Assembly: GCA_020184695.1 (NCBI GenBank)
Contig: JAANOX010000197.1
Span: forward strand, 1-61,905
Length of the DNA stretch: 61,905 nucleotides
Reading direction: 5' to 3'
Source: Histomonas meleagridis 2922-C6/04-290x
Lineage: Eukaryota; Protista; Parabasalia
Shown here: in pieces, positions 1 to 21,823 of the stretch
Layout: every line of letters begins with the position of its first letter
How positions within the stretch are numbered: position 1 is the first letter of the stretch
Program-made: the position numbers and the translations under genes
The notes under the pieces: model-generated
What the model was told of the DNA's origin: nothing
What the model saw: the letters and a program-made list of their open reading frames with translations, nothing else
Databases searched by the model: none

Positions 1-1
1 A

Positions 2-271
2 GTTGATAAATATGTCATCGCTGAGGAAAATGAATTAGTAAAATTAATTCAACTATTATGTTATACGGAAGAAGTAGGATTACTTAAAGCAGATCAGAAA
101 GCAGGCTGCTGCAGAAACAGTTCGTATGATTATGTTTCGAAAATTTATGTAAAAAAAGATGGAAACACTTATAATTTGAAGTATTCATACGCTGATGTAG
201 TAGAGTATTTAACAGAACGTAAAATTAGTTCGAAGTTTGTTAAGTCTTCAGGAAAAATAAGCTATAAATAA
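2..271 (+). CDS. 3' end of an uncharacterised element ORF (truncated by window edge)
   Basis: Frame 2 is open from base 2 (VDKYVIAEENELVKLIQLLCY...SSGKISYK) to TAA at 269-271; not in the ORF track. Confidence 0.65.
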   Translation, partial: VDKYVIAEENELVKLIQLLCYTEEVGLLKADQKAGCCRNSSYDYVSKIYVKKDGNTYNLKYSYADVVEYLTERKISSKFVKSSGKISYK

Positions 272-302
272 GTTAAAATTTATATTTTTCTATCTATATA
301 AG

Positions 303-854
303 ATGCCAGTAATTCTTTCAATCGATATTGGAGTAAAGAATCTTGCTTATGCTATAATCACTTATCCAGCTGTTACTTTTGATGTTATTGATATATCAAA
401 ACCAAATAATGCAGTTGATAGATGCAGGTTGGTTCAAAGATTGATTGGTAACATTATTAGAAAGAATCATGTTTCTGATGTAGTTATTGAAAAACAATTT
501 CCACAAAATACTGTTGCTATGGAATTAATGTATAGCATTATTACTCTTGCTTTAAATTTTACATCTCAAATCTATTTGTTTGATACAAAAGGAAAATTTA
601 CATATCTTGATTTAGAATATGATACGAAAAATATAGCTCATAAAAAATTAAGCGTAAATATTGCTAGGAACTTTTTAAAGTTTGTCGAAGGAGATCATTT
701 TGATTCATGGAACTCATTTCAAATGCTATATAATATCGAAAAATATAAGAAACAAGATGATATAGCAGATGCTATAAATCAGGGAATGGTTTATGGTTTA
801 AAAAATAAACTTATACATATTACTAAGAAGGAATATAAAGAAATGATTTTTTAA
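303..854 (+). CDS. Poxvirus A22-like RuvC Holliday-junction resolvase
   Basis: ILSIDIGVKNLAY (first Asp), VVIEKQ (Glu) and KKQDDIADA (Asp pair): the A22/Ydc2-type RuvC catalytic pattern in a 183-aa protein. Confidence 0.8.
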   Translation: MPVILSIDIGVKNLAYAIITYPAVTFDVIDISKPNNAVDRCRLVQRLIGNIIRKNHVSDVVIEKQFPQNTVAMELMYSIITLALNFTSQIYLFDTKGKFTYLDLEYDTKNIAHKKLSVNIARNFLKFVEGDHFDSWNSFQMLYNIEKYKKQDDIADAINQGMVYGLKNKLIHITKKEYKEMIF

Positions 855-880
855 AAACTAAGCTATTTTTTTTTAATATA

Positions 881-900
881 TTTTTTTAACGAATAATAAA
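881..900 (+). promoter_or_regulatory. Element-specific upstream motif, class 1 (TTTTT-ACGA-N-TAAG-like)
   Basis: tttttttaacgaataataaa directly before ATG 903; related copies precede ATGs at 5412, 9961 and 10531. Confidence 0.5.
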
Positions 901-902
901 GG

Positions 903-3149
903 ATGCCGAAAAGATATAGTACAGAAGAAATTAGAGACTTGTTCGAACGTTATGGTCACACACTACCGGAGAATTTTGTTTATAGAAATAATACTACACA
1001 TATTAATGTTACTGACGAACAAACAGGAAGAAGATAAAGATCTACATTAATACAGTTGAGATATCGAATAGATCACGGCAGAAGTGAATATGATTTTCCG
1101 CAATATATGAATATGGCAATTGATAACGAAGAACCGAAGTATAAAACATCATTTGAGAGATTTAGAGATAAGCAAGATGATTATTTCAAAAATGAGACTC
1201 ATGAATTCCAGCAAGAAGTTTTTCAGAACACTCAAAAAATGATTAGATTTATGAAGCAAAAAGATTTTACAATGAATTTTGACGGAAATGTCGATTCCTT
1301 CTTATACTCACTAATGCTTGCACTAAAAGAAATAGGTCCTCGAATCAATAAAGATATCAGAATGACAATCATTGATGAAAACGGCAAAATACAATACGCT
1401 CATGCTAACAGAAATACTGTTGACTTTCTCCAATCATTATTTGAAACAGGAAGAGAGATTAGTGATTATAACAAAGTTGCTTTAGACTCATATCTCAACA
1501 TTAGATCAATTCATTTTGAATTTAGAGATCTCAAAAAAGGAAAAAGAATTAATCCCGGATTCTTTCCGTATATTAATAAAACAAATATTGATCTAACAAA
1601 ATTCGGAATATTTAATTCGGTAAATAATGAAAAAATTAATGATTCATGCTTGATCCAAGCATTTGAGGCGAGTAAATTATTTTCAGAAAATGATATAAAC
1701 ATGTTAAGAAGATCATTTATTACAACAAGAACTGTTTCTCGCAGTGAGTTAAAGAAGATATCAGATCTGTTAAAAATTAATGTGTACTGTAAGATTGGTA
1801 GCATACACTGTACATTCGGCGAACAGTACGATAAAAAGATAAAATTAATAATTATTGATGACCACTATATGCTGTATGATAATGTTAATGTTAATGAGTT
1901 TTATTTATAGAATTATGAAAGGATTAATAAAGAACCAAGATTTAAGAACCATCAGCGGAAGATGATGCTATTAAAATATGATGATGAGAGATATTCGTTC
2001 AGTAAGAAAGGTATAAGCATTAAAAAATCAATACAGATCATGAAAGAGGAAAATTTATTGGTTCCAATAGATCAAAAGACATTTAACAAGTTATGTTGGA
2101 GTTATGAGCGGAAGAGTGAAAAATATAATAGTTTCCGAAAGATTGTTATTCCTGATAAAAAAGAGTTACCGTCATTTGTTAAGAAAGTAAATCAAACTAA
2201 GTCATTTTTTGGATATACTCCTGAAGAGAATGAAGTGCATGAACGTTTGCAAGAAGTGCAGGATTTAGTTGATTCGTTAGGTGTTAAAATTAATGTTGCC
2301 AGGTATTATAAATTTGCTGATCTAATGCAAAAGATCATGTATGAATACGGATGTTTTGATAATGTTTATGAACTATCAGGAGATATAGCAGAAAAGATTC
2401 GAAGTAAATTAGCATTTCCTCGTACTATATGGAGCAAAATACATTTAAAGAAGAAGTTATACTATATAGATATTAATGGTGCTTATATGTCAAGTATGAC
2501 AAATATTCCGACAGGAATACCTGACGACGATGGAAACTTTAGCGGAGAGAATACAAAAATAAAAGAACTTATCGAATTATTATATCAGAAAAGATCAGAA
2601 GCAAAGGCTAACGGTAACGACAAACTAGCAATGACAATTAAGTTTTTGATGAACAGTTGTTGGGGATTTTCAATAAAGAAACCCAGTAATATTAAGCATA
2701 AGCGAACGAATGATGTAAATAATTATGCCGAAACATTTGCACCTTATGTATTGAAATATACTTATAATGAAGATGGTATATCAGGATTTGTCGATACAGT
2801 AAACGCTTATGTCGAACATTACTATTATCCACAATTTGCAAGAAATGTTCTAAAAAACTTTAATGATAAAATGAATGAGTTAAAGAAAATGGTTAATGTT
2901 TATTACTCAGAAGTTGATTCTGCGTTAGTGTCGGAGGAAAACTTTTTATTATAAAAAGACAAAGGCTTTATTGGAAATGAACTTGGAAAATTCAAAGTTG
3001 AACACATATTTACAGAAGTATATTTCAAATCTGCTGATTGTTGGATTGGCAAACATGCTGACGGAACATATTATTATCATCTGACGCCAAAACTTAAACA
3101 ATACTGTCAGAATAAGGCTGATCCAATTAAAGCACTGATGTTAATTTGA
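903..3149 (+). pseudogene. Family-B (protein-primed-type) DNA polymerase with N-terminal vOTU-like domain; three in-frame stops
   Basis: Track ORFs 1056-1910 and 1962-2954 and the flanking sequence are one frame from ATG 903 to TGA 3147-3149, interrupted by TAA 1035, TAG 1908 and TAA 2952. Motif A YYIDINGAY, motif B KFLMNSCWG, motif C YYSEVDS and downstream ELGKFKVE. NDSCLIQAF...DDHYML is an OTU-like Cys/His pair. Confidence 0.85.
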
Positions 3150-3167
3150 AATTTTTATTTTTATTAA

Positions 3168-3386
3168 ATGAATTATATTTCACTCAATATTGCAAGAACA
3201 ATATTTAATGAAATTGGTCTCGATACTGATAAATTATATGTGGTAAGAAATGTTGTACATGAAAAATTACAAACAAATCCCTTATTTACAACTGAAATAT
3301 ATGACCTCAATATAATTAAATTGTCTGATATGCTTTCTGATTTTATTAATGATTGTATCGAAGAAATATTATGTCGAATAGTATAA
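3168..3386 (+). CDS. Small hypothetical element protein (72 aa)
   Basis: ORF preceded by tttttatttttattaaATG (class-2 motif). Confidence 0.55.
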   Translation: MNYISLNIARTIFNEIGLDTDKLYVVRNVVHEKLQTNPLFTTEIYDLNIIKLSDMLSDFINDCIEEILCRIV

Positions 3387-3404
3387 GGAAGTGTAATTTT
3401 TGGG

Positions 3405-3550
3405 ATTAATGACAGGACTATTTAACAAGACGGTCTTTTCGGAAATTATGGAACTAAAGTCTTTTTATACGAGGAAGAATTAGCAATTGAGGTTTTGCTG
3501 AAATCAATGATTTTTGGGTCATTTTTATGTGATTCACACGTTATATTAAA
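3405..3550 (+). repeat. Degenerate copy of the element non-coding module
   Basis: attaatgacaggacta...ctttttatacgaggaagaattagcaattgaggttttgctg aligns with 4575-4670; the right inverted arm is missing. Confidence 0.75.
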
Positions 3551-3658
3551 AGGTATGGCAACATGACTTCCGACCAGCTATTTTTACTCATTTTTGAAGG
3601 TTCAAAAAATAATGCTAATCTTAAAAAAATAATTTTTTTTTATTCTACTAAAAGAGAC

Positions 3659-4552
3659 ATGGAATCACTCAAACTTGAAACTATTGAGCTTATTGAAAAC
3701 TACAAAAGCGAAATCATACGTTTGCAAAATGAAATTAATAATACAAGTTTAAAAGATTTTATTAATGCAGACGAAGAATTATTTTATATACGCTCACGTA
3801 TGCATAATATAGAACAAATGGCGGATTTAATCCAAGAAAATAAGAAATATTTAAATGAAATTGAGGAGATGTTAAGGAATCCACCGAAGATTGAGGAGAA
3901 GAAAAAAGAATAAAGAATTATTAAAACTGAAGAAGAACAAATTGATGAACTATTCACATTACGTGTTAGTGAGCCGAGAAAGCTCTTCATCGAATCAGTA
4001 GTCGAAGGTGTTAATGAAGATCATAAAAAGACTATTAAATGTGTTGTAAATGAATATTCAAGTGGCTTTAATAAGGCATTAAAAGAATATAGTGCATTTG
4101 TTAGAAAAAATATTTTTAACGACAGGAGCTTAAACATTATAACACGTATGATTAATAAGTCTTTTAACTTTTTCGATCAATCAATTAATTAAACAGTATA
4201 TAAATCAGCAATGATAGCAGATCCACCGGAAGATGATACATCAGAAGCTGCTAAAGTTTGTGCTAGAAAGGTTATGAAGCAATTTAATGAAATTGTCGAC
4301 ATTAACGATATTATTAATAATAAAACTAAATCACTCAAAGAAGATGGATTTAAGTTAGTAAAAGCTGTAGAATGGATCGATACGATAGATAAAGACATTT
4401 TATATGATGTTAATGATCTTGTGGAATCTTATAATGATTTTTACAATACTGTTATTAATTCTAAATCATTCGGTAAACTCATGAAAGGTAAATTTATTAC
4501 TAAAAGAGCAACTCGAAAAGGTAAGAAATATACTTTTTATCAAAAGATTTAG
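3659..4552 (+). pseudogene. ~297-aa coiled-coil protein with basic, winged-helix-like C-terminus; two in-frame TAA stops
   Basis: Track ORFs 3563-3913 and 4211-4552 are in the same frame and the gap is open (RIIKTEEEQIDELF...FFDQSIN). Stops at 3911 and 4190; likely ATG 3659 follows a T-rich motif. Confidence 0.7.
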
Positions 4553-4571
4553 ATGAATGATACATTATATT

Positions 4572-4975
4572 TGGAATTAATGACAGGACTATATGACAGG
4601 ACAGTCTACCTGGAATTGATGAAACCAAACTCTTTTTACACGAGGAAGGATTAGCAATTGAGGTTTTGCTGTTTTCGATGATTTTCACGTCAAAATTTAA
4701 GGTATTACTGCGAAAAGGTATGTTTTGATGTCAAACCTAGTTAAAATTACGTGAAAATGTATAGAAAAGGTATGTTTTGATGTCAAACCTAGTTAAAATG
4801 ATAGTAATTACTACAAAAACCCATGAAAATCACTATTTTTCATAACTTTTGCTATTTCCAAAATTTCTACTTTCTACAACTACTTACTTTTTATTTATCC
4901 AGGTAGACTGTCCTGTCATATAGTCCTATATATAATAATAAAAATAATTTTGATTCGACATTCCCGCCAAGTGAG
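4572..4975. repeat. Element non-coding module with perfect 30-bp inverted arms and two 36-bp direct repeats
   Basis: 4585-4614 (aggactatatgacaggacagtctacctgga) is the exact reverse complement of 4898-4927. gaaaaggtatgttttgatgtcaaacctagttaaaat occurs at 4712-4747 and 4764-4799. The module is homologous to 11131-11545. Confidence 0.9.
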
Positions 4976-5320
4976 TTACTCGAATCTATAATCATGATAT
5001 TTAATAACCTTACCGGAATCATTACGAAAAGTACTGTAAAAAGTATTATAAACAACTTTTGTATATTTGTCGCACATCTTTCTTTTGCTATTATTCGACA
5101 CACATATAATAACATCAACAGGAAAAGCAATTTCAAATGTAGAGAATGAAACATATTCAATTTTTACATAATGAACATAGTTGTCAAACGTATATGTTTC
5201 GTTTTTGTCAAATACAAATGTTATCTCATTCGTTTTACCGTAAATATTAATAATATTTTCAATAATAATTGCTGCTGAACTTTTTTCTACTTCTTCCGCC
5301 TCATACTCATAACCAAACAT
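4976..5320 (-). CDS. Hypothetical element protein (114 aa)
   Basis: ATG ORF with TAAATG start context, convergent on the module. Confidence 0.55.
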   Translation of the reverse strand: MFGYEYEAEEVEKSSAAIIIENIINIYGKTNEITFVFDKNETYTFDNYVHYVKIEYVSFSTFEIAFPVDVIICVSNNSKRKMCDKYTKVVYNTFYSTFRNDSGKVIKYHDYRFE

Positions 5321-5393
5321 TTAAAAAGATTTTGGAATTAATAACTCCATTTATATAAAATAAAAAAATAAATCTAATTCAAAAATAATTTTA

Positions 5394-5411
5394 TTTTTTT
5401 ACGATTAAGAA
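5394..5411 (+). promoter_or_regulatory. Class-1 upstream motif
   Basis: tttttttacgattaagaa immediately before ATG 5412. Confidence 0.55.
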
Positions 5412-5615
5412 ATGATGGATAAAATTTTTGATAACATAGATGAAGAAATTATACGTGCAGTTCAACAATTAACAGAAAGATTTACGAATCAAATGTTAGA
5501 ATATATTTTATATAATGAATTACAAGAAGCGAAGCCAGAAGATATAGCAAAGAAGTACTTAAACATTAAGCCAATTAAGCGTAGACGCTGCAGAACAAAA
5601 AATAATTTATCATGA
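5412..5615 (+). CDS. Small protein with basic NLS-like C-terminus (67 aa)
   Basis: ORF after a class-1 motif; ends KPIKRRRCRTKNNLS. Confidence 0.6.
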   Translation: MMDKIFDNIDEEIIRAVQQLTERFTNQMLEYILYNELQEAKPEDIAKKYLNIKPIKRRRCRTKNNLS

Positions 5616-5677
5616 ACAAACAAACCAAACAACATTAGATGATGTTCTTCCGTATATAAATGAAGCGTTATAAATTC

Positions 5678-7198
5678 TTAATCACTAAATACAGCAATAA
5701 TGGTATCACTAATGATTCCAGTAACTCTTTCAACAATCATTTTATTTATTTTTCCCGTCAGTACTGTTTCATCATCTAATATTGAACCATCATATAGTAC
5801 AGTATCACCGATATTATATATTGATGAGTCAGTAACACTAAAATAATAATCACCGTGTGAAGCAAAATCTATTGTATCTTGATTAACGGAGACATCGCTC
5901 CTAATGTTACCACCAGTTTGAAATATTTCTCCTGCTGCATGTTTTGCAACACATATTCCGATAAATTCTTTATATGTTCCTGTTGATTTTACACTAGGAA
6001 TACAATCTGTTGCTGTTGTTTCCGTCACATAATTTTTATCTTTGAGTGAATAAACATTTCCGCTAATAAATACTGAAGAACCGATAGTATAATTGCTTAA
6101 ATCTTCTTCTATCGGCGCATTATGCACAATAGTTTTATTAATCTGACCTCCACCACTACTTGATATAATAGCTTTTCTGTATGTATCATCTGATATATGC
6201 CAAAATCCTAATTCATTTTCATATGATGCTATTCTCCAAGTATAAATACCTGGTGCTTCTGTTGAATTATTATGAAAAACGAAATCTAAAAATCTTCCTG
6301 TTTTTAATACAGAATTTTGATAAGGAACAATATCAGCAGGTTGATGAGTATGAGATGATGGAGTAAATGTTGATGGTTTATCAGTAATATCATTATAACT
6401 ATGAGTATGTGTATTTAAAGAAAAATTATTAACAGGTATATCATTAATAGAAATACAATTTATATTACCATCAATTCCATTGAAACTAATAACACCATCA
6501 TTATTATCAAGTTTACCGAAATACATAACATTGCCGGCAGTTCTTATTCTCCAAGAATAATCACTATTTAAATCATTATTATCATGAAAGTCAATATACT
6601 GTCCAACTTCCATTACACCATCTGATTTAATAGTCGCGATTGATGTAATATTTACTGTTGAATTAGAACCTCCTCCAATACTGTTTGAAATATAATATCG
6701 GTTAATGGAATTTGCGACAAGACTACCATTAATAGCTAAATCATTATTAATTATTTCATGTGTATGATTTTTTAATGCAAAATCATCTGTTGAATAACCA
6801 TTAATGGTATCAATAATTAAATTTGTAATTGAAACATTATTACTATCTTCATTGATTTTTACGAATTGTGAATATAAGTCTAAAACTCTATTTATATTAC
6901 CGAACATTTCAATTATATATGCATTTTTCATTATATTTTCTCCAGTAAGTATATCATCAACTTTAATATTATTATTGATATACTTTAGATTTTTTATGCT
7001 ATTATCTAACGGTGATATTACAACATGATTTCTTCCGTAAGTGAAAACAATACTTTTATCCACACTGTTTATCTGTAGTGTGCAAATACCATTTGATAAA
7101 GTGTCGGATGTTTTGCTGTGATTACTGTAAACAACACTATTTTTATTCATCAACGCGCGCACTATATTTTCTATTTTTTCAAACTGTGAATTTGACAT
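5678..7198 (-). CDS. Virion fibre / phage tail-fibre-like protein with putative C-terminal chaperone domain
   Basis: Likely start MSNSQF at 7198. GVMEVGQYIDFH..DYSWRI module with a second copy (GRFLDF..IYTWRI). HTH repeats (NHTHEI; THTHSYNDITDKPSTFTPSSHTH). C-terminal EFIGIC...ASHGDYYF...IGDTVLYDG. Confidence 0.65.
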   Translation of the reverse strand: MSNSQFEKIENIVRALMNKNSVVYSNHSKTSDTLSNGICTLQINSVDKSIVFTYGRNHVVISPLDNSIKNLKYINNNIKVDDILTGENIMKNAYIIEMFGNINRVLDLYSQFVKINEDSNNVSITNLIIDTINGYSTDDFALKNHTHEIINNDLAINGSLVANSINRYYISNSIGGGSNSTVNITSIATIKSDGVMEVGQYIDFHDNNDLNSDYSWRIRTAGNVMYFGKLDNNDGVISFNGIDGNINCISINDIPVNNFSLNTHTHSYNDITDKPSTFTPSSHTHQPADIVPYQNSVLKTGRFLDFVFHNNSTEAPGIYTWRIASYENELGFWHISDDTYRKAIISSSGGGQINKTIVHNAPIEEDLSNYTIGSSVFISGNVYSLKDKNYVTETTATDCIPSVKSTGTYKEFIGICVAKHAAGEIFQTGGNIRSDVSVNQDTIDFASHGDYYFSVTDSSIYNIGDTVLYDGSILDDETVLTGKINKMIVERVTGIISDTIIAVFSD

Positions 7199-7214
7199 TT
7201 TAATAAAATAAAAA
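7193..7214. promoter_or_regulatory. Class-2 motif / 15-bp bidirectional intergenic spacer
   Basis: tgacattttaataaaataaaaa is identical at 7193 and 8201; on the minus strand it reads TTTTTATTTTATTAAAATG(TCA). Confidence 0.55.
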
Positions 7215-8026
7215 TGTTTAAAACTGAAGATCAATTTAGCACGATCGCATCACAACTTCCGGTCGAAGAAAATTATACAAATCTCGACATTGATCAGTAT
7301 GAAACACTTAATGAACAGAACGGATACACATTCCGTTATCCTCAGCGTTGGTTAGAAAGTCTTTCACAGAATAAAGCGATTGGTGTTAGGAGGCTAGACA
7401 TTATTCCGACAACTCATGTTATATCGTTACGTTTTAATGTAGTGAAGCCTGATAGTGTTTCAGGAACGTCGCCATCACCGCGAACAATTTCATTTCAAGT
7501 AATGGCTCAAAACACTTTATTGGAGATAATGACAGGAATATGTAATGACTTTAATTCATTATTTGCTAGCTATAGATTACATTATACTTATGATGACAGC
7601 GGAATGTTATCAATATACTGTGATTATGTCGGAAGTGATGATACAGAGTCAATTCCAGCTAATTTTTCAATATTTGACGCTTCATCAACTAATATAAATA
7701 CTAAAGAATTTTTAAGATTTCTTAACCAAGATGAAACTGATATAAATTATCTCTCAAATCCTTCAAACACAAGAGTATTTCGTAATGTTTGTAACTCAGA
7801 ATATATTGAGTTCCATGCATCATTTAGTGATTCAAAAAGGAGATTTATCGGAATTAAAGGAGACTTTTACGAAAAGCCTACAGTATTATATAATGCTCCT
7901 ACTGACGGAAGCACTTTTAACATTCGTTTTACCACTAACGGCAAAAATAACATTTATCCCAAATATTGTCGATTTATTATTCAATCAGTATTCTTATATA
8001 ATTATCGAAAGACTGTTGTTTTATGA
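7214..8026 (+). CDS. Putative minor capsid (penton-like single jelly-roll) protein, paralogue 1
   Basis: 270 aa, beta-rich, with an insertion. N-terminal YTFRYP..AIGVRRL and C-terminal FNIRFTTNG..FIIQSVF resemble polinton penton architecture; located next to the ATPase and fibre. Confidence 0.5.
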   Translation: MFKTEDQFSTIASQLPVEENYTNLDIDQYETLNEQNGYTFRYPQRWLESLSQNKAIGVRRLDIIPTTHVISLRFNVVKPDSVSGTSPSPRTISFQVMAQNTLLEIMTGICNDFNSLFASYRLHYTYDDSGMLSIYCDYVGSDDTESIPANFSIFDASSTNINTKEFLRFLNQDETDINYLSNPSNTRVFRNVCNSEYIEFHASFSDSKRRFIGIKGDFYEKPTVLYNAPTDGSTFNIRFTTNGKNNIYPKYCRFIIQSVFLYNYRKTVVL

Positions 8027-8206
8027 GTACATAGTGTTTTTAATTTCTTCCGACATTTCTTCGCTCGAAGAGCTCAAGCCAACTCGTTGGCGTTCTACTT
8101 CTTCTTCAACACTAAATATTTCATAAGCTTTTAATAAAGTTCTTACAACAGAGTTTGAAACATATATTGTTCCAATGACACATAACCAAACACCAACAAA
8201 TGACAT
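8021..8206 (-). CDS. Small protein with N-terminal hydrophobic segment (61 aa), possible virion membrane protein
   Basis: MSFVGVWLCVIGTIYV; start context identical to that of the fibre gene. Confidence 0.5.
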   Translation of the reverse strand: MSFVGVWLCVIGTIYVSNSVVRTLLKAYEIFSVEEEVERQRVGLSSSSEEMSEEIKNTMYS

Positions 8207-8237
8207 TTTAATAAAATAAAAATTTTATTTTTACAAA

Positions 8238-8999
8238 ATGTATAATGCTGTAATTGATTACACAATATCTTCTTATGATGCTACACATTATAACAGAATG
8301 AACATTAATCTTCCATCACCTCCGACAAGAATTGCCAAAATGATTGTTATGTCATTAACGACAAAATGTTCGATAGTAGTTATTGAAAAAGATGATTTTA
8401 TACAGATTAACGGGAAAAAATATTATTTCACTACTGACTACACCGATCTTAATTCACAAACATTCATACTTCTGTTAAACTCACTCATCCAAGAGTCGGG
8501 TGTAACTTCTGAAGTCGATGAGGCGGGAAGAATTATCTTTAGTTCTGACACTGCTTTTACTATTGACTCTGCATCATATAATATTATTCAGATATCCGGA
8601 CTATATTCACAAGTACTTCCTATCCCTGCATCTTATAATGAAAAATATGAAATAACTGCTGAAAGCGTCGGAAACACTTTATCAACACCTGTTTTATATC
8701 TATTGTCAAATGTTGGGAAAAGTTCATACAGAAACTTAAATGAAACCATTAACATATCAAAAATTGTTTTAAGAATTAATAACTCCTTCTCTGCAAACTT
8801 TCCGATAATAGTGTCGAACGCTGATTTTGAGATTGAATTAAACAGTAATGACCTATCACACTTACAGTTAACATTAGTTGATGCTAATCTTCATGAGGTT
8901 CATTTATTGAATCCATTATATATTACAATAAGTGTTCAAGGTTTGCCGGATGAAGATTTATTCGCTATTGAACAAAACGAAAGCAATCGAACTAAGTGA
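8238..8999 (+). CDS. Putative minor capsid (penton) protein, paralogue 2
   Basis: C-terminal LSHLQLTLVDANLHEVHLLNPLYITISVQ fits the polinton/PLV penton C-terminal pattern; N-terminal strand NINLPSP..KMIVMSL. Confidence 0.65.
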   Translation: MYNAVIDYTISSYDATHYNRMNINLPSPPTRIAKMIVMSLTTKCSIVVIEKDDFIQINGKKYYFTTDYTDLNSQTFILLLNSLIQESGVTSEVDEAGRIIFSSDTAFTIDSASYNIIQISGLYSQVLPIPASYNEKYEITAESVGNTLSTPVLYLLSNVGKSSYRNLNETINISKIVLRINNSFSANFPIIVSNADFEIELNSNDLSHLQLTLVDANLHEVHLLNPLYITISVQGLPDEDLFAIEQNESNRTK

Positions 9000-9013
9000 G
9001 AACAACAACAAAA

Positions 9014-9919
9014 TTATTTTTGTTTGACACTGTTTGAAAGTGTAATAGTTACTCGTCGAGCCTTAATGTAAATGTTAAATCTAGCATGAGGATCTGTGAT
9101 TTTAGAATATTCATTCCATAATTTATCCGCATCAAATATTGATGCAGGTGATTCTTCCATGAGATCATAAAAATCATATTTTGAAATGCCGGGAAATATC
9201 ACTATATCTGACAATGTTCTTTTGATATCTTTTGAAATACTCTTTGTTGTTTGAACACATATGGTAACATTGATGTTAAAATGTCTGAGCTTCTTTAACA
9301 TTCTAGATAAATCTGTTTCTTTACTTCTTAATAACGGATGTGATGCAAAGTCATCAAGAATGAGCCAACAACGGTGATAATAAGTTCTCCACTGGTATTT
9401 TGCTAACTTCTCGGCAACATATTTTAATCTCTTCTTTTGATTATATAAATTATGTTTTGTAAAAAGTCTTTCAATCTCTTCATTCGTTTTCTTAAAATTA
9501 CTGTTGATATATTTAATGATAGAATTATATTTTAATATTCGTCTCATATATTTATTTAACCAGTCGAGTAACTGAGTATCTTTTATAGCGACGAGCTTAC
9601 TCTTGTTAATTACTTCTTTATAAGTGTTGACGGTTTCATCAAATTTATTACTAGTGCTGCAAATAACTATTAGCTCAAAAAAAGGCTCTCGAAATAATAC
9701 TTCTTGCTGAGCAGCAAGTTTTAAATAAGTGTAACTCTTTCCGCTTGACATTGATGCGATAAATGCACTGATCCCATTCTGAGCAAATGGAAATCTATCA
9801 TGAATGAGCTTAATTAATGCATTGTTTAATACTTCTTCATTAATTTTACTAATTTTATAAAATTGTTCTTCTATATCATCAAATTTTTTATCTACTTCGG
9901 ATAATTTATTTTTTCGCAT
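9014..9919 (-). CDS. A32-like (FtsK-HerA) genome-packaging ATPase
   Basis: Walker A ASMSSGKS, Walker B LILDDF and the A32-type LRHFNINVTICVQ motif. Confidence 0.92.
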   Translation of the reverse strand: MRKNKLSEVDKKFDDIEEQFYKISKINEEVLNNALIKLIHDRFPFAQNGISAFIASMSSGKSYTYLKLAAQQEVLFREPFFELIVICSTSNKFDETVNTYKEVINKSKLVAIKDTQLLDWLNKYMRRILKYNSIIKYINSNFKKTNEEIERLFTKHNLYNQKKRLKYVAEKLAKYQWRTYYHRCWLILDDFASHPLLRSKETDLSRMLKKLRHFNINVTICVQTTKSISKDIKRTLSDIVIFPGISKYDFYDLMEESPASIFDADKLWNEYSKITDPHARFNIYIKARRVTITLSNSVKQK

Positions 9920-9941
9920 TATTTTAATATTATAAAAATTA

Positions 9942-9960
9942 TTTTTTTACGAATAAGTAA
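9942..9960 (+). promoter_or_regulatory. Class-1 upstream motif
   Basis: tttttttacgaataagtaa before ATG 9961. Confidence 0.55.
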
Positions 9961-10443
9961 ATGGAAGAATTCCAAAACTATTTAATCAGTGAGTACAAAG
10001 TTCAAGACTATGCTGCTGTTGAATTTAAGTATAACCACTCTGAAAACATTAAATTGGACAAGAAATCGGAGAAATATGTTGTTCAACACGTTATTCTTGT
10101 CGGAATAAAGTTTTATGACGGAACATTAAAGCTTTTACACTCTGCTAACATTAAATTTGTTAATAATGTTCTCGCAAAAGTGTGTGAAAAGAAGTTAGTA
10201 AATATAGCTCCTGCAGAATCTAATAATAAATTTATGGCAGCAAGATCTGATATTATTAAAATAATAACGGATGAATTGATTGCTAAATTGAATGAAGTAG
10301 GAAGCAAGCTTAAATCTGTAGAAAGTTATTCTGGAAAAGCAAACAGTAATATTTCAATTCCTGACGAGTTTAAAGGAGAATTAATTAAAATTTCTGATTC
10401 CACAAACATTAACACAACTGATAAACAACAATTTGAAATGTAA
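9961..10443 (+). CDS. Hypothetical element protein (160 aa)
   Basis: Clean ATG ORF with a class-1 motif. Confidence 0.7.
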   Translation: MEEFQNYLISEYKVQDYAAVEFKYNHSENIKLDKKSEKYVVQHVILVGIKFYDGTLKLLHSANIKFVNNVLAKVCEKKLVNIAPAESNNKFMAARSDIIKIITDELIAKLNEVGSKLKSVESYSGKANSNISIPDEFKGELIKISDSTNINTTDKQQFEM

Positions 10444-10508
10444 CATTCAACTTTTTATTAATTTTTGATGGATCAAAAAAATAACTCTAATTTTAAAAAA
10501 ATATTTTA

Positions 10509-10525
10509 TTTTTACGACTAAGAAA
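10509..10525 (+). promoter_or_regulatory. Class-1 upstream motif
   Basis: tttttacgactaagaaa before ATG 10531. Confidence 0.55.
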
Positions 10526-10530
10526 TAGAG

Positions 10531-11106
10531 ATGGAATCAAACTGGATCGAATGTGTCGTCGATAATGATTATGAAATTAATACATCATTTCCGCATCAAA
10601 TCCGTAGGAAAAATAATAAAAGAATTATTAGTGAACATGTTGATAACACAATAGGAGGTTATGTTATATGTCATTTAAACAACAAGAAGTATCAAAAACA
10701 CCGCATTATTGCTTTGCAGTTCATTGAAAATGATGATCCAAAAACTAAAAAATATGTGGATCACATCAATCATATCAGAACAGATAACAGAATTGAAAAT
10801 CTTCGATGGGTATCGTCGAATAAAAATAATTTAAATAAATCATCGCATTTTGGCGTAGAATATGAATATGTTGATGATATACCTAATGATTCAATTGAAA
10901 TATTACAATACGGCAAACATAACTTTGTCGATTACTATTATGTCGAAGAAGAAGATAAATTTTATTTCTGGAACCGAATTAAATTTAGGAAACTTAATAT
11001 CTGCTTCAATAAATGTGGTTATGCATTTGTTTATGCAAATGATATTGATGGAAAAAATGTTAGAATATATTATTCAAAGTTCAAAAAAGAATATGGGTTA
11101 GTGTAA
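10531..11106 (+). CDS. HNH homing-type endonuclease (HNH_3-like)
   Basis: KHRIIALQFI...VDHINHIRTDNRIENLRWVS..NN. Confidence 0.9.
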   Translation: MESNWIECVVDNDYEINTSFPHQIRRKNNKRIISEHVDNTIGGYVICHLNNKKYQKHRIIALQFIENDDPKTKKYVDHINHIRTDNRIENLRWVSSNKNNLNKSSHFGVEYEYVDDIPNDSIEILQYGKHNFVDYYYVEEEDKFYFWNRIKFRKLNICFNKCGYAFVYANDIDGKNVRIYYSKFKKEYGLV

Positions 11107-11130
11107 GCGTTGGATCAAAAATTATTTTTA

Positions 11131-11871
11131 GAATTAATGTTATCATAAAGGACACTATGACAGGACAGTCTTCCCGGAATTGATGAAACCAAACTCTTTT
11201 TACACGAGGAGGAAATAGAAATTACAAAATCCCTGAAATCAGTGATTTTCACGTCATTTTTCGAGGTATTACTGCGAAAATGGGTGTTTAGATGTCAAAC
11301 CTATTAAAAATGATAGGTATTCATGTTAAAATGGCGTGTTTTGACGTCAAACCTATTAAAAATGATAGGTAATGCTTCTAAAACCACCTAAAATCAGTGA
11401 TTTTCACCACTTTTGCTATTTCCAGAATTTCTACTTTCTACAACTACTTACTTTTTTATTTATCCAGGTAGACTGTCCTATTATAATGTCCTATATATAA
11501 AAATAAAAAAAATTCTAGTTTCGACATCTTCCGATAGTGATTAACAGTAAATAATAACAAATAAATCTAGTACAGACATCTTCCGATAGTGGGTAAACAG
11601 TAAATATTAGTGTAGACATCTTCCGTAAATGATTAGCAGAAATATAGTGTCAAACCTTAAATTTACCCCGTTTTTAGTGATTTTCGATAGTTTTGCTATT
11701 TCCAGAATTTCTACTTTCTACAACTATTTACTTTTTATTTATCCAGGTAGACTGTCCTATTATAATGTCCTATATATAAAAATAAAAAAAATTCTAGTTT
11801 CGACATCTCCGTATAGTGATTAACAGTAAATAATAACAAATAAATCTAGTGCAGACATCTTCCGATAGTGG
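11131..11871. repeat. Terminal repeat region of the element
   Basis: Module homologous to 4572-4975 (imperfect 30-bp inverted arms, 11149-11178 vs 11463-11492, 25/30). A ~181-bp direct duplication (11411-11592 and 11691-11871). Five copies of a gacatcttccgatagtg-like motif (11523, 11575, 11615, 11802, 11854). Confidence 0.9.
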
Positions 11872-13108
11872 TATCATATGGTAGCGACGAAGGAGCGAAC
11901 CAACACACCGAGGCGCAAGGCGCCGAAGAGCAAGCCGTAGGCTAAAGCGCAGGGTGCTACCCAAGCTAGCCAGGTTTTGCATGTGTGTGTGTTGGATGAA
12001 ACAAAACAATTTCGAAACATATGAAAATTCTTCTCAATGCAATGCTTGAGAACACAATAGCCCTGATACAATAAGTGAATCTTGGTCAATTTACCAAATT
12101 TGACTTCAATAAACATTTTTGATTTTATTTTCATCCATGAATGTGTTGAAAACAATATGCTGTGAAAGAGGGTCTTTTTATTAATAATAAATTTTGGCTT
12201 TTTCAAGTTTTTATATATCTGATATCTGATAATATAATTTTGAAAAAAAAATTATTCTAAATTTGTCAATAAAACATATTTTCGATTTGCTTTGGGAGCG
12301 CATGGAGACTGGCCACTAATTATATATGTAACGAGAGATATATGAGAAAATTATACATTTTTATATTGTTTTTGCCGCTAACCATTAATAGTATTTACTA
12401 ACAAACGATTTATATTAACATTATTTTTTTTTTTTTTTTTTGATCTATTTTTACAAATTCTTATTTACAAATCCATTACATTGTTAATTTTGCTAAACAT
12501 TCGATTTAAATAATATATATTGGAAATAAATAATATATAAAACACAAAAAATTTGTTTATAAACCAATTTTATAGGAAGACAAGTAAAGCCACTTTTTGA
12601 GCTTTGCTCAAAAAGTGTCTCAGCTATTTCACTAATATTTTTTATAAAAATTATTATTGAGAAAATAAATTGATGTAATTATAATATTAATTAATGGTAT
12701 TATTTACATGTCTTTTTTTATTAACTTCGAGAAAACAATCTTTAATAAGATAATATTCTTAATTTAAAAAACAATAATATATCAACTACAGATTACGCAC
12801 CAAATCAAAAATATCGAAAACGAATTTATAGAAATGATTGAAGTTAATATCTGATAAATATTTTAGATCAATATCCTATAAGCAGGAAAAAAAGGTTCGA
12901 ATTTATGAATAATCAATTTTACTAATTTTTTTTTTCCTATTCAAATTCTGAATATAATATTTCGATATAAAATTATATAGCTATTTTCATAATAAATGTA
13001 TTTATAAATTTTGAAAAATATTGTTTATTAAAGAAGATATTTTTGTTTTATTTTGAGGTTCAATCACTTTTTCTTTGAAATGATTAAACCCATTTTATAA
13101 TAAACATA

Positions 13109-13644: not shown

Positions 13645-14839
13645 ATAAACGGTCTCCCCGATAATTTATTTTTTTTCAAGAAATCTCGGTGGTTGAATGT
13701 AATACTTACGATTAAAAATAAACAATATCTCTGCCTAATGATGTACTTATTATTTATTGTAATATTAAGATTTTTGATAAAATATGACAGCTAATTAAAT
13801 TTTATATTGATATAAGATGAAAAAATCGTTATATTACATTTTTAGAATTTTTCCTTATATGGTCCTGAAAAAAAAGAAATTGAAGAAAATAAAGAAAAAA
13901 AAGAAAATTAAGAAAAATGATGAATAAATCATCATGAAAGCAAAATTCAATTTTGAGATTAATATGCGAAATTCCATTTAATAATGTGATAATATATTTT
14001 ATGAAACAAATTTAGAATCCATAAAAAATAAGAGAGAAAAAACAAAAAACGGAATATGCATTAAAAAGAACATCAAAAAAATTGAATTCAAATCGATCAA
14101 ATTGCATTCAATATAAAAAAATAAATTTTCAAATGAATAGAGAGGGATTAATATAAGTGATAAAACAAAATAAATTACAAATATATTATCGCATAATAAA
14201 TCAAAATCAAATGATAGAGAGATATTGAAAATTTGAAGATAAAAATTTCAAATGTAATTTGCGAACACATTTCAATAGATATTATTAATATTATACTCTG
14301 TTTATATAATTTATACATCCATGTAATTTTTTATTAATAATAAATTGGATTTAATCTATATAATTACGAAATAAATATGTTTCAAAACCTATTTTCTTGT
14401 TTTGACTTTTAGGCTTTTTTCAATGAGTTTTAATCGTATTTTTAGACTTTAAACAACATTATCTCAATAAGTAAAGATAATCACAAAATATAAACCCAAG
14501 TATAAAACTGAGATACAACATTAATTATAATTTTGCATTATTGAAAAATTCGAATTTTTAGGTTTGATATGAACAGAACTTAATGATTAACCAATAAAAG
14601 TTAAAAACAGCTAAATATTTATTTATATTTTAGAAATTGTAATAATGTAATAGAACGGTTTTTTCATCTCATATTAATATAAAATTTAATTAGCTGTCAT
14701 ATTTTATCAAAAATCTTAATATTACAATAAATAATAAGTACATCATTAGGCAGAAATATTGTTCATTTTTAATCGTAAGTATTACATTCAACCACCGAGA
14801 TTTCTTGGAAAAAAATAAATTTCCAGGGAGGTCGTTTAT
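13645..14839. repeat. Fold-back inverted repeat (~185-bp arms, ~820-bp spacer); possible non-autonomous TIR element
   Basis: 13645-13830 is the reverse complement of 14654-14839 with few mismatches (core aaatctcggtggttgaatgtaatacttacgattaaaaat...). No TSD found. Confidence 0.85.
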
Positions 14840-20149: not shown

Positions 20150-21823
20150 ATGTGTTCTCTCTTTCTGGTTTTACCCATGTGTTTCTTTTGCAAATTACAA
20201 ACCTCTTCAAAAAATTCAGGTTCAAAGATTTTTAGTGATCAATTATCTATTTCTCAAACTCTCAAACATTCCCCTTATTTCACTTTAGAATCCAAAGGGC
20301 ATACATATTTACCATTCTCAGCCCATAACAAGGAGTGTGTATCCATTAAATTCACAAAATTTATTATGCTAAAAATGAATGAATTGAATACATTAAATAT
20401 CATCACTGAAGAATATCATCATCATTCTTCTTTATTAAAGTTACCGATATCATATGTTAAGCATTATTTCAAATTCTTTTCTTTTACATTTAATCATTTT
20501 TCATTAAAAGCTCATTTACCAATTTCAATGAAAAATAATTTCATGAAGAAAATGTTCAAATTCAATGAAAATGCTCAAGTTCTAATGTATAACTTTTTTG
20601 TTTTGGGATTTTTTTTATTTTGTGAAATCAGATTTTTAATGAAAAAATTGAAAGCAAAAGATAAGAAAAAAAGTGAAAATATATTAATTTTTGTTATGTT
20701 TTTCATGAGTTCTTATCAAATATATCATGAAGATAATTTAACACTTACAATCATAAATTTAAATGAATTTAATGAAATTTCTCAATATCAAAACATAACA
20801 AAATATATAATTATCAGTGAAAATATTTATTCAATTCCAAGTAATGCATTTTCAGGATGGGCTTCAGTTATTTCAGTCGATTTTGGTAATTCAGTATCAA
20901 ATATTGGAAGTTATGTGTTTATGTCATGTTTTAATTTAGAAACGATTATAAATGGAGAAAATGTTACAACAATTGGTGGTGGAGCATTTTCAATGTGTTC
21001 ATCGATCAAAAACATTACAATTCCAAATTCAGTCACAACAATTGGTGGTTCATCATTTTCATTATGTTCTAATTTAAGGATATTAACACTTGGATATGGA
21101 ATAAGAAAAATTGAAGGTTCGGCATTTGGGAATTGTTATAATCTTGAATGCATTTATTATTATGGATATTCAGAACCAGAAATTGGTGAAAGTGCATTTT
21201 ATAATGTATCAACAAGTGTTATCACATATCCAACATATGTAGGAAGTAAATTTGGAAGTTTATATGTTGCCAAAGACAACACAGAAGGAAGATGCGAACC
21301 ACTTCCAACACATTCATTTAGTCAATCGAATACATTTACTGCATCACTTCAAAGTGATATTTCATTTTCATTAACATTTTCATACACATTAACAATTACA
21401 TTATCAATTACACATTCATTAACTATTTATGAAACAAAAACGAAAACATTTTCATTATATATAAATCATTCGACATTTTCATATATTGAAACAGAATTTA
21501 TTTATTACAATTACACGATTGTTATTTATTCGACTTATTATAATTATTATTCCAATTTCTTTACAATGTTTTACACTTCCGATGAAAATTCGCCAAATGG
21601 AATTACGACGAATGCTTTGATTGGAATTATTTGCGGCTCATTTGCATTTGTTTTGATCATTGTTGGAATTGTTATATTTTTAGTGAAAAGTAATAATAAG
21701 AAAGAAAAATCGAAATCAAAGTTACAATTCAAGGACACGACGACATCAAGTACAAAGCAAATTGAAGAAGTAAATAGTTTAGTTGAAGATATTGTGAAAG
21801 AAGATGAAGACAATTGGCTATGA
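20150..21823 (+). CDS. BspA-like LRR type-I membrane protein (possible alternative start ATG 20697)
   Basis: TpLRR units, S/T/Y-rich stalk, TM (LIGIICGSFAFVLIIVGIVIFLV) and acidic tail ending EDEDNWL. Confidence 0.85.
   Translation: MCSLFLVLPMCFFCKLQTSSKNSGSKIFSDQLSISQTLKHSPYFTLESKGHTYLPFSAHNKECVSIKFTKFIMLKMNELNTLNIITEEYHHHSSLLKLPISYVKHYFKFFSFTFNHFSLKAHLPISMKNNFMKKMFKFNENAQVLMYNFFVLGFFLFCEIRFLMKKLKAKDKKKSENILIFVMFFMSSYQIYHEDNLTLTIINLNEFNEISQYQNITKYIIISENIYSIPSNAFSGWASVISVDFGNSVSNIGSYVFMSCFNLETIINGENVTTIGGGAFSMCSSIKNITIPNSVTTIGGSSFSLCSNLRILTLGYGIRKIEGSAFGNCYNLECIYYYGYSEPEIGESAFYNVSTSVITYPTYVGSKFGSLYVAKDNTEGRCEPLPTHSFSQSNTFTASLQSDISFSLTFSYTLTITLSITHSLTIYETKTKTFSLYINHSTFSYIETEFIYYNYTIVIYSTYYNYYSNFFTMFYTSDENSPNGITTNALIGIICGSFAFVLIIVGIVIFLVKSNNKKEKSKSKLQFKDTTTSSTKQIEEVNSLVEDIVKEDEDNWL
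20648..21337 (+). repeat. 690-bp segment ~99% identical to 23150-23839
   Basis: Read side by side, about 6 substitutions; the flanks are dissimilar upstream and much more diverged downstream. Confidence 0.9.

What the first reader, a model, noticed from the sequence alone, without database searches (positions are those of the whole stretch)
3405..11871. Repeated cis-module: 30-bp inverted arms enclosing direct repeats phased at 52 bp
Seen: three same-orientation copies (3405, 4572, 11131), each just downstream of a + strand gene. Arms are 30/30 complementary in the middle copy and 25/30 in the terminal copy. The tgtcaaacct-core repeats recur at exactly 52 bp in both full copies (4712/4764 and 11291/11343). 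A different motif, gacatcttccgatagtg, also recurs at 52 bp twice (11523/11575 and 11802/11854). Inference: 52 bp is ~5 helical turns, suggesting phased protein-binding sites. The module could be an iteron-like or baculovirus-hr-like origin, a recombination site that shuffles or excises gene cassettes (e.g. a ~6.5-kb circle from 4572-11131), or a hairpin-rule 3'-end signal as in mimiviruses.
Basis: partly seen in the sequence, partly recalled or inferred. Interest (0 to 1): 0.75.

Follow-up and report, generated by a model that had tools for sequence, protein, structure and literature searches.

The report
Maverick virus end repeat, copied inward
These repeats are the inner half of the end repeat of a decaying Maverick-type virus integrated in a protist genome, plus two older internal copies; they carry evenly spaced sites that likely bind protein and likely mark where gene blocks were added or flipped.

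Summary
Repeats real; interpretation revised. Window 1-11992 is the right part of a decaying Maverick/Polinton (broken pPolB, A32 ATPase, HNH, A22 resolvase) in a parabasalid-like genome. Contigs put the element's end at 11992, in (GT)5, with other genomic copies leaving there into different flanks. The terminal 'module' is therefore the inner ~410 bp of an ~870-bp terminal repeat. The 4564 copy is a 20%-diverged internal duplicate; the 3396 copy is a ~150-bp stub without right arm or 52-bp repeats. The two 'different' 52-bp motifs are one site, GAYGTC-N4-CTA, in opposite orientations with unrelated spacers, which favours constrained spacing; four pairs reduce to two events. A second palindrome, AAATCA-N-TGATTT, also flanks the homologous winged-helix gene in gut-metagenome relatives, where that cassette is absent, present or flipped at the repeat. 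Not a MITE; no hairpin-rule signal. Internal direct copies of a TIR segment are already reported in Gezel-14T. Binding, origin activity, circles and the left end are untested.

The parts
11121..11992 (+). Right terminal repeat of the Maverick-like element (~870 bp), ending in (GT)5 at 11983-11992
   Evidence: single-copy HNH contig ends at 11151; contigs over 11232-11439 and 11563-11719 are about 3-4 times deeper than single-copy contigs; two other contigs in each of X1 and X2 leave at 11992 into other flanks; host-repeat contigs without the element join at 11993. (GT)n run unique in the window.
11121..11545 (+). Module c3 = inner half of the terminal repeat; arms 11149-11178 / 11463-11492 (25/30)
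4564..4975 (+). Module c2 = internal direct copy of the inner terminal-repeat segment; arms 4585-4614 / 4898-4927 (30/30, likely homogenised arm to arm)
   Evidence: 79.7% to c3 over 409 nt; contig with c2 alleles at single-copy depth 517/595; arm table
3396..3545 (+). Module c1 = stub: left arm plus one AAATCA-N-TGATTT palindrome, then the upstream region of the winged-helix gene
4727..4791 (+). Forward pair of GAYGTC-N4-CTA sites, 52 bp apart (4727, 4779)
11291..11355 (+). Forward pair of GAYGTC-N4-CTA sites, 52 bp apart (11291, 11343)
11516..11620 (-). Reverse GAYGTC-N4-CTA sites at 11516, 11568 (52 apart) and 11608 (40 apart)
11676..11871 (+). 279-bp-period tandem duplication of 11396-11592: second right arm (11742-11771) and second reverse pair (11795, 11847)
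11235..11404 (.). Two AAATCA-N-TGATTT palindromes (11236, 11391); a third at 3501; degenerate in c2 (4826)
   Evidence: 3 exact matches vs 0.11 expected; fuzzy scan
11912..11962 (+). Three GC-rich mini-hairpins with 3-nt loops just inside the terminus
   Evidence: 3 of the window's 29 such hairpins lie in these 123 nt, 0.06 expected
3659..4552 (+). Decayed gene (two in-frame stops, at 3911 and 4190) for a coiled-coil protein with a predicted C-terminal winged-helix domain, between c1 and c2
4976..11106 (.). Block between c2 and c3: tail-fibre-like gene (5678-7198, -), A32 packaging ATPase (9014-9919, -), ORF9961, HNH endonuclease (10531-11106, +); inverted relative to pPolB compared with relatives
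903..3149 (+). [quoted passage not shown]
   Evidence: PF03175
303..854 (+). Poxvirus-A22-like Holliday junction resolvase, open frame
   Evidence: PF04848 E 9.8e-14; 24 homologues, up to 91% identical

Best explanation
The module is the inner half of the terminal repeat of an integrated, decaying Maverick/Polinton virus, and the two internal copies are likely relics of earlier element ends, left when gene blocks were recombined in at the inner edge of that repeat. Shown: the repeat runs from 11121 to an end at 11992 in (GT)5 that other genomic copies share; it carries one site (GAYGTC-N4-CTA) as a forward pair and a reverse pair, each 52 bp apart, and a palindrome (AAATCA-N-TGATTT). Inferred: the (GT)n tip is the protein-primed replication start and integrase substrate; the subterminal sites bind proteins on one helical face (52 bp is about 5 turns) to assemble the end complex; the palindrome is read by the element's winged-helix protein. 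Inferred history: homologous recombination or template switching at this repeat placed the winged-helix gene, and then the inverted morphogenesis block with its HNH gene, between duplicated repeat segments; fold-back pairing homogenised the c2 arms. The internal copies lack the tip and would not act as origins.
For: End at 11992 shared with two other flanks in each of two runs, element-free host repeats joining at 11993, HNH contig at single-copy depth while repeat contigs are 3-8 times deeper. A run of another study holds 11657-11992 on one contig with no other letters and one gap (X6). Relative L039 also has ~500 bp of repeat-rich non-coding DNA after its last gene, ending in (GT)6. Length fits T. 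vaginalis Maverick TIRs of 500-900 bp (PMC12289875 supplement 1); short terminal tandem repeats are a Polinton trait (PMC4196379). Each copy abuts a stop codon, as an inner TIR edge would. pPolB and ATPase are on one strand in 30 of 30 related loci holding both (four sequence clusters), on opposite strands here. Precedent: a >300-bp direct copy of a TIR segment bounds a nuclease-bearing module in Gezel-14T (PMC11296320). Same 9-base core in both 52-bp pairs, spacers unrelated (39/100 mirror matches vs mean 29); a fourth variant copy keeps 52 through two losses and two gains of a base. c2's left arm carries right-arm bases at positions 24 and 27, where c1 and c3 left arms agree against it.
Against: The left end is outside the window, so 'inverted' and a TSD are not shown; integrase and major capsid genes are not in the window. 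Contig depth is no true copy number, and X1/X2 may be the window's own source. GAYGTC-N4-CTA was defined after the fact, occurs in only 2 of 84 related loci, singly, and one reverse site is spaced 40. Only one of the arm changes between c2 and c3 is compensatory. c1 is only slightly closer to c2 than to c3 past the arm (65 vs 61 of 82), so the conversion argument rests on two bases. Winged-helix matches are weak (best E 0.05, Z 5.2). Relatives show other rearrangements with no such repeat beside them. 11168-11261 is about 8 times single-copy depth, more than the three visible ends explain.
Confidence: 0.7

Rival explanations
1. The repeats are working recombination sites of a cassette system: gene blocks (winged-helix gene, morphogenesis block) are regularly flipped, excised or swapped at them, with the winged-helix protein binding the palindrome and the A22-like resolvase cutting the junctions.
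For: In one family of relatives the winged-helix cassette is absent (L022, L026, L077), forward (L024, L045) or reversed (L023, L033) at the same junction; L023 is L024's cassette flipped (95.7% over 869 nt) with the crossover inside the repeat. The palindrome is exact in 2 of 4 loci with the gene, interrupted in a third, and in 1 of 80 without it. c3's left flank pairs better with c2's right flank than the other five pairings (3 of 1000 shuffles). Intact resolvase frame.
Against: No tyrosine or serine recombinase among the element ORFs scanned. c2 and c3 are 20% diverged, c1 is a stub, the winged-helix gene is broken. No hybrid c3/c2 junction among the joints or listed loose ends (contigs drop rare forms and 41 loose ends were not shown). 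The relatives are short-read metagenome contigs, which can be mis-joined at 110-130-bp repeats. The resolvase was not found in any of the 84 related loci.
Confidence: 0.15
2. The window is a fusion or nesting of two related Mavericks: c2 is the truncated right end of one element and 4976-11992 is the reversed end of another; the repeated sites are neutral by-products of tandem duplication.
For: End-to-end fused and nested Mavericks are described in T. vaginalis (PMC7845603, PMC12289875). 20% divergence of c2 from c3 would fit two subfamilies; a further variant copy exists elsewhere in the genome. L039 has an inverted partial end next to its own.
Against: No (AC)n start at 4976 and no outer TIR half after 11992, so extra deletions are needed; no gene is present twice in 1-11992; c1 needs a third event; equal 52-bp spacing of two unrelated spacers is left to chance.
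Confidence: 0.1
3. An independent MITE or foldback element with 30-bp TIRs inserted three times into the Maverick.
For: Perfect 30-bp arms around 283 bp in c2; several copies and variants in the genome.
Against: Homology continues past both arms; no copy in the 50 kb of host DNA in the window; no TSD beyond 3-4 A/T-rich bases; c3 is continuous with the element's end in about three copies.
Confidence: 0.03
4. A 3'-end processing hairpin of the mimivirus kind for the upstream gene.
For: Each copy starts 10-15 nt after a stop codon.
Against: No short hairpin in any copy; the arms are 283 nt apart and c1 has one arm; most element genes lack the module; no Rfam match at E<=1 in 11100-12100.
Confidence: 0.02

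Closest known systems
Trichomonas vaginalis Mavericks TvMav1-3 (PMC12289875, passages and supplement 1 part 1)
   Same: pPolB, A32 ATPase, tail-repeat protein and HNH gene as in TvMav3; TIR length like TvMav1/2 (500-900 bp); relatives carry KilA-N, DUF3839, DUF4108.
   Different: TvMav3 TIRs are 100-130 bp with poly(A/T) ends, this one ~870 bp ending in (GT)5; an A22 resolvase is not in their gene table; internal TIR copies and spaced sites are not described in what I read.
Gezel-14T Polinton-like virus end module and TIR-turnover model (PMC11296320, passages and section 9 part 2)
   Same: A >300-bp segment of the TIR repeated in direct orientation inside the genome, bounding a gene block with a homing-type nuclease next to the TIR.
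   Different: There the block is replicative (primase-helicase, tyrosine recombinase, GIY-YIG); here it is the morphogenesis block with HNH, and a second, older stub bounds a winged-helix gene.
Polinton termini and racket model of protein-primed replication (as reviewed in PMC4196379, passages; the primary papers were not read)
   Same: 100-1000-bp terminal repeat with a 1-3-bp terminal tandem repeat; pPolB encoded.
   Different: The TIR here also has its own inner fold-back (30-bp arms) and two kinds of repeated site.
Plasmid iterons, baculovirus hrs, subterminal sites of DNA transposons (recalled, no call)
   Same: Short sites repeated with helical phasing, in direct and inverted orientation.
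   Different: Only two sites per run, part of a linear element's end; no initiator or origin activity shown.

Membership tests
Maverick/Polinton | Protein-primed family B polymerase | tested here: met
   PF03175 E 2e-07; broken by three stops
Maverick/Polinton | A32-type packaging ATPase | tested here: met
   PF04665 E 0.0011, below the curated cut-off; 527 homologues, most of the 120 listed carry PF04665
Maverick/Polinton | Retroviral-like integrase and major capsid protein | tested here: inconclusive
   Not in the window (left part missing). Candidate ORFs in relative L067 (301 and 540 aa) had no Pfam match; naming them integrase and capsid is my reading by eye.
Maverick/Polinton | Terminal repeat of 100-1000 bp with a short terminal tandem repeat | tested here: met
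   11121-11992, (GT)5 end shared by other copies
Maverick/Polinton | The same repeat inverted at the other end, and a target-site duplication | not testable with these tools
   Left end outside the window; no genome held
MITE | Element boundaries at the TIRs, with a TSD | tested here: not met
   Homology runs past both arms; no TSD over 4 nt
MITE | Many dispersed copies in host DNA | tested here: inconclusive
   None in window 12000-61905; contig depth suggests roughly 3-8 near-identical copies plus variants, context unseen
Mimivirus hairpin-rule 3' signal | Short perfect hairpin at the transcript end | tested here: not met
   0 of 3 copies have a stem >=11 with loop <=8, one mismatch allowed; rule recalled
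Mimivirus hairpin-rule 3' signal | Polyadenylation inside the hairpin | not testable with these tools
   Only contigs available
Iteron/hr-type origin | Repeated, helically phased sites | tested here: met
   Two independent 52-bp pairs of one site; one 40-bp exception
Iteron/hr-type origin | Cognate initiator and origin activity | not testable with these tools
   Winged-helix protein is a candidate only
Site-specific cassette or invertase system | Dedicated recombinase | tested here: inconclusive
   None among the element ORFs scanned; left part unseen
Site-specific cassette or invertase system | Alternative arrangements joined at the repeat | tested here: inconclusive
   Seen in relatives' contigs, open to mis-assembly; none seen for this element

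The most novel reading that the evidence does not exclude
Parabasalid Mavericks use TIR-derived repeats as built-in exchange points: an unannotated winged-helix family binds a palindrome conserved across divergent elements, a 52-bp-phased site array organises the end complex, and gene blocks are flipped, dropped or swapped there, with an A22-like resolvase finishing the exchange. That would be a mechanism for the modular evolution of Polinton-like viruses.
Probability: 0.18. Interest if true: 0.72.

Novelty: new variant of a known kind. Interest (0 to 1): 0.42.

Why it matters
Maverick terminal repeats are usually noted only for length and end bases. This one yields two concrete candidate binding sites, a spacing rule and a candidate binding protein, which makes the cis-anatomy of a Maverick end testable in vitro. 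The internal relics and the flipping cassette in relatives give a second case, beside Gezel-14T, for the idea that these viruses gain and reorder gene blocks at their TIRs. As a class, the object is known.

Tried and rejected
No genome is held for the window; the related records are not searchable as genomes. Exact module patterns found nothing in metagenome or viral contigs; ATPase scans of viral contigs found no relative; no module-level DNA match in 84 related loci. No RNA holder listed; X6 is only guessed to be RNA, so its cover of 11657-11992 is not read as expression. Reads were laid only on 10850-12170, with 4 of 13 listed runs, so c1, c2 and a c2-c3 junction were not examined directly. 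TGTCAAACC with one mismatch is not enriched (20 vs 14.5). Rfam: no match. Winged-helix family: no significant Pfam, PDB-sequence or atlas hit; whole-protein fold searches gave no match at E<=0.001; the 57-row alignment was too divergent for a locus scan. The flank ORF piece had no Pfam match and no atlas answer. The (AC)5 runs in L062 and L082 are not element ends. Earlier findings of this scan: nothing. One primary Polinton paper was not held. Rejected: Helitron 3' end at the hairpin near 11952-11968 (contigs place the end at 11992); a recent inverted duplication as the source of the second 52-bp pair (mirror identity at background); the X2 variant copy being c2 (31 vs 46 differences and a different flank).
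Full report
Setting. The host part of the window (12-62 kb) encodes BspA leucine-rich repeat proteins, a Myb protein, small GTPases and other eukaryotic genes, which points to a parabasalid (inference from gene content; species not established). Positions 1-11992 hold an A22-like resolvase (PF04848, E 9.8e-14), a protein-primed DNA polymerase (PF03175) broken by three in-frame stops, an A32-type ATPase and an HNH nuclease. This is the right part of a decaying Maverick/Polinton. No genome is held, so outside evidence comes from 84 related loci found with the ATPase alignment (80 of 85 metagenome hits kept, plus 4) and contigs of 4 of 13 listed runs.

Observation. The three copies, the arms (30/30 and 25/30) and the 52-bp spacings are as reported; both full copies fold better than all 100 shuffles. 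But c1 is a ~150-bp stub, and the last 52-bp pair is part of a 279-bp tandem duplication, so the four pairs are two events. No copy lies in the 50 kb of host DNA.

Where the element ends. On 10850-12170 the HNH contig has depth 500 in X1, like the host flank contig (501), and stops at 11151. Contigs over 11168-11261, 11232-11439 and 11563-11719 have 3873, 1891 and 1526; X2 is similar. The tool warns that depth is no true copy number, and X1/X2 may be the window's source, so I read this as 'a few copies'. Two contigs in each of X1 and X2 follow the window to 11992 and leave into other sequence (agreement 0.65, so two different flanks). Other contigs (2 in X1, 3 in X2, 1 in X6) join at 11993 from element-free copies of a host repeat. 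The end is thus 11992, in the window's only (GT)n run of four or more units. X6, from another study, holds 11657-11992 on one contig. Chicken-gut contigs (X5) hold diverged pieces of the module that share 4 of 6 listed letters with c1. Relative L039 also has ~500 bp of repeat-rich non-coding DNA after its last gene, ending in (GT)6, with a different repeated motif. So c3 is the inner half of an ~870-bp terminal repeat. T. vaginalis Maverick TIRs are 500-700, 900 or 100-130 bp (PMC12289875, supplement 1 part 1), and a 1-3-bp terminal tandem repeat is a Polinton trait (PMC4196379, passages). That the repeat is inverted at the other end is inferred, not shown.

The sites. The two motifs are one: GAYGTC-N4-CTA lies on + at 4727, 4779, 11291, 11343 and on - at 11516, 11568, 11608, 11795, 11847 (9 vs 0.33 expected; the pattern was made after the fact, so that ratio is inflated). 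The chance that the second motif matches the first at these nine bases in any of 52 registers on either strand is about 4e-4. The middle four bases vary while the flanks hold. The forward and reverse pairs mirror each other about 11435, yet their spacers are unrelated (39 of 100 mirror matches, mean 29, best of 120 centres 41). A fourth variant copy in X2 loses two bases and gains two in the spacer and keeps 52. This favours constrained spacing, about 60% in my judgement. Against: one reverse site is at 40; c2 has only one decayed reverse site; the site occurs in 2 of 84 related loci, singly. A second palindrome, AAATCA-N-TGATTT, occurs three times, all in modules (0.11 expected).

The gene between c1 and c2. 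ORF3659 and ORF4211 are pieces of one 297-codon gene with two stops. It has four close homologues (47-50%) and 61 profile hits. Models give long helices and a C-terminal three-helix, beta-hairpin domain whose nearest structures are nearly all winged-helix proteins (AraR, RFX, PadR; Foldseek probability 0.96-0.99 but E 0.05-0.2; best Z 5.2): a predicted winged helix, weakly supported. The family occurs in 4 of 84 loci. There it is flanked by a repeated non-coding unit holding the same palindrome: exact in L024 (twice) and L045, split by a 30-nt insert in L023, not seen in L033; among the 80 loci without the gene it occurs once, in coding DNA. Of 11 loci examined at that junction, three lack the cassette, two have it forward, two reversed, one has another insert and three end there; L023 is L024's cassette flipped, with the crossover inside the repeat. 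Mis-assembly at these repeats is not excluded.

How the internal copies likely arose. Each copy abuts a stop codon, as an inner TIR edge does. pPolB and ATPase share a strand in 30 of 30 loci holding both (four clusters at 85% identity) but not here, so the block between c2 and c3 has been inverted or brought in. At arm positions 24 and 27, c1 and c3 left arms agree and c2's left arm has the right-arm bases, although c1 otherwise shares a block of changes with c2; that suggests arm-to-arm conversion in c2, on two bases only. One arm change between c2 and c3 is compensatory. I infer successive recombination at the inner TIR edge, each step leaving a truncated copy. A direct >300-bp TIR copy bounding a nuclease-bearing block is reported for Gezel-14T, with a model of end-module turnover (PMC11296320, passages and section 9 part 2). 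Fused and nested Mavericks in T. vaginalis (PMC7845603 and PMC12289875, passages) are the main alternative history.

Rejected readings. MITE: homology passes both arms and there is no TSD over 4 nt. Hairpin rule: no short hairpin in 3 of 3 copies. Active excision of a 6.5-kb circle: no junction among the joints and listed loose ends, but contigs drop rare forms and c2 was not in the laid stretch.

Literature and novelty. Nine searches gave no paper that, by title or abstract start, describes spaced sites in Maverick TIRs or this winged-helix cassette; most were seen as listings only, subscription papers are not held, and part 2 of the T. vaginalis supplement was not read. PMC10120064, PMC6431247 and PMC8547959 were seen as passages, for background. 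Iteron, hr and mimivirus features are recalled. Verdict: a known kind of object (Maverick terminal repeat with internal relics) with undescribed, testable fine structure; interest 0.42.

Noticed in passing
window 303-854: Open A22-like Holliday junction resolvase in a Maverick; close homologues exist (91% in ENA) but none of the 84 related loci carries it and it is not in the T. vaginalis Maverick gene table.
   Followed up: partly
window 11993-12206 (- strand): The element sits in a host repeat about eight times deeper than single-copy DNA; it cuts an open frame whose window part ends ...NFHMFRNCFVSS, which by eye recalls a tyrosine-recombinase C-terminal motif (recalled; no Pfam match).
   Followed up: partly
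window 13645-14839: Separate host foldback or MITE-like element: 206-nt arms, 93% complementary, 783 nt apart; no TSD of 7 nt or more found.
   Followed up: partly
window upstream of 903, 3659, 5412, 9961, 10531: Shared A-run/T-run motif about 15-45 nt before the start codons, likely the element's promoter; a similar stretch precedes the winged-helix and KilA-N genes in L024.
   Followed up: partly
window 11670 and 11346: Likely assembly errors or strain differences: all four runs have one more T after 11670; in X1 the whole depth shows A at 11346.
   Followed up: no
window 11870-11911: This short GC-rich piece also occurs in other contexts in X2 and X6 (loose ends at 11870/11872, 11908, 11911).
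   Followed up: no
L045, L033, L023, L034 (several places): Short GC-rich hairpin inserts scattered in genes and spacers of one family of relatives, some in frame and differing between copies; similar hairpins lie near the window's terminus.
   Followed up: no
L039 9435-10358: After the (GT)6 end comes an inverted, 78%-identical copy of the inner 290 bp of the same end: a fused or nested end, or mis-assembly.
   Followed up: partly
L001-L048: Near-complete Maverick-like elements are common in human-gut metagenome assemblies, in three ATPase clusters among loci with pPolB; hosts are presumably gut protists. Four similar contigs sit in bacterial MAGs, likely as contamination.
   Followed up: no
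window 20647-20946 and 23149-23448: Recent tandem duplication of a BspA gene region (99% over 300 nt, period 2502).
   Followed up: no
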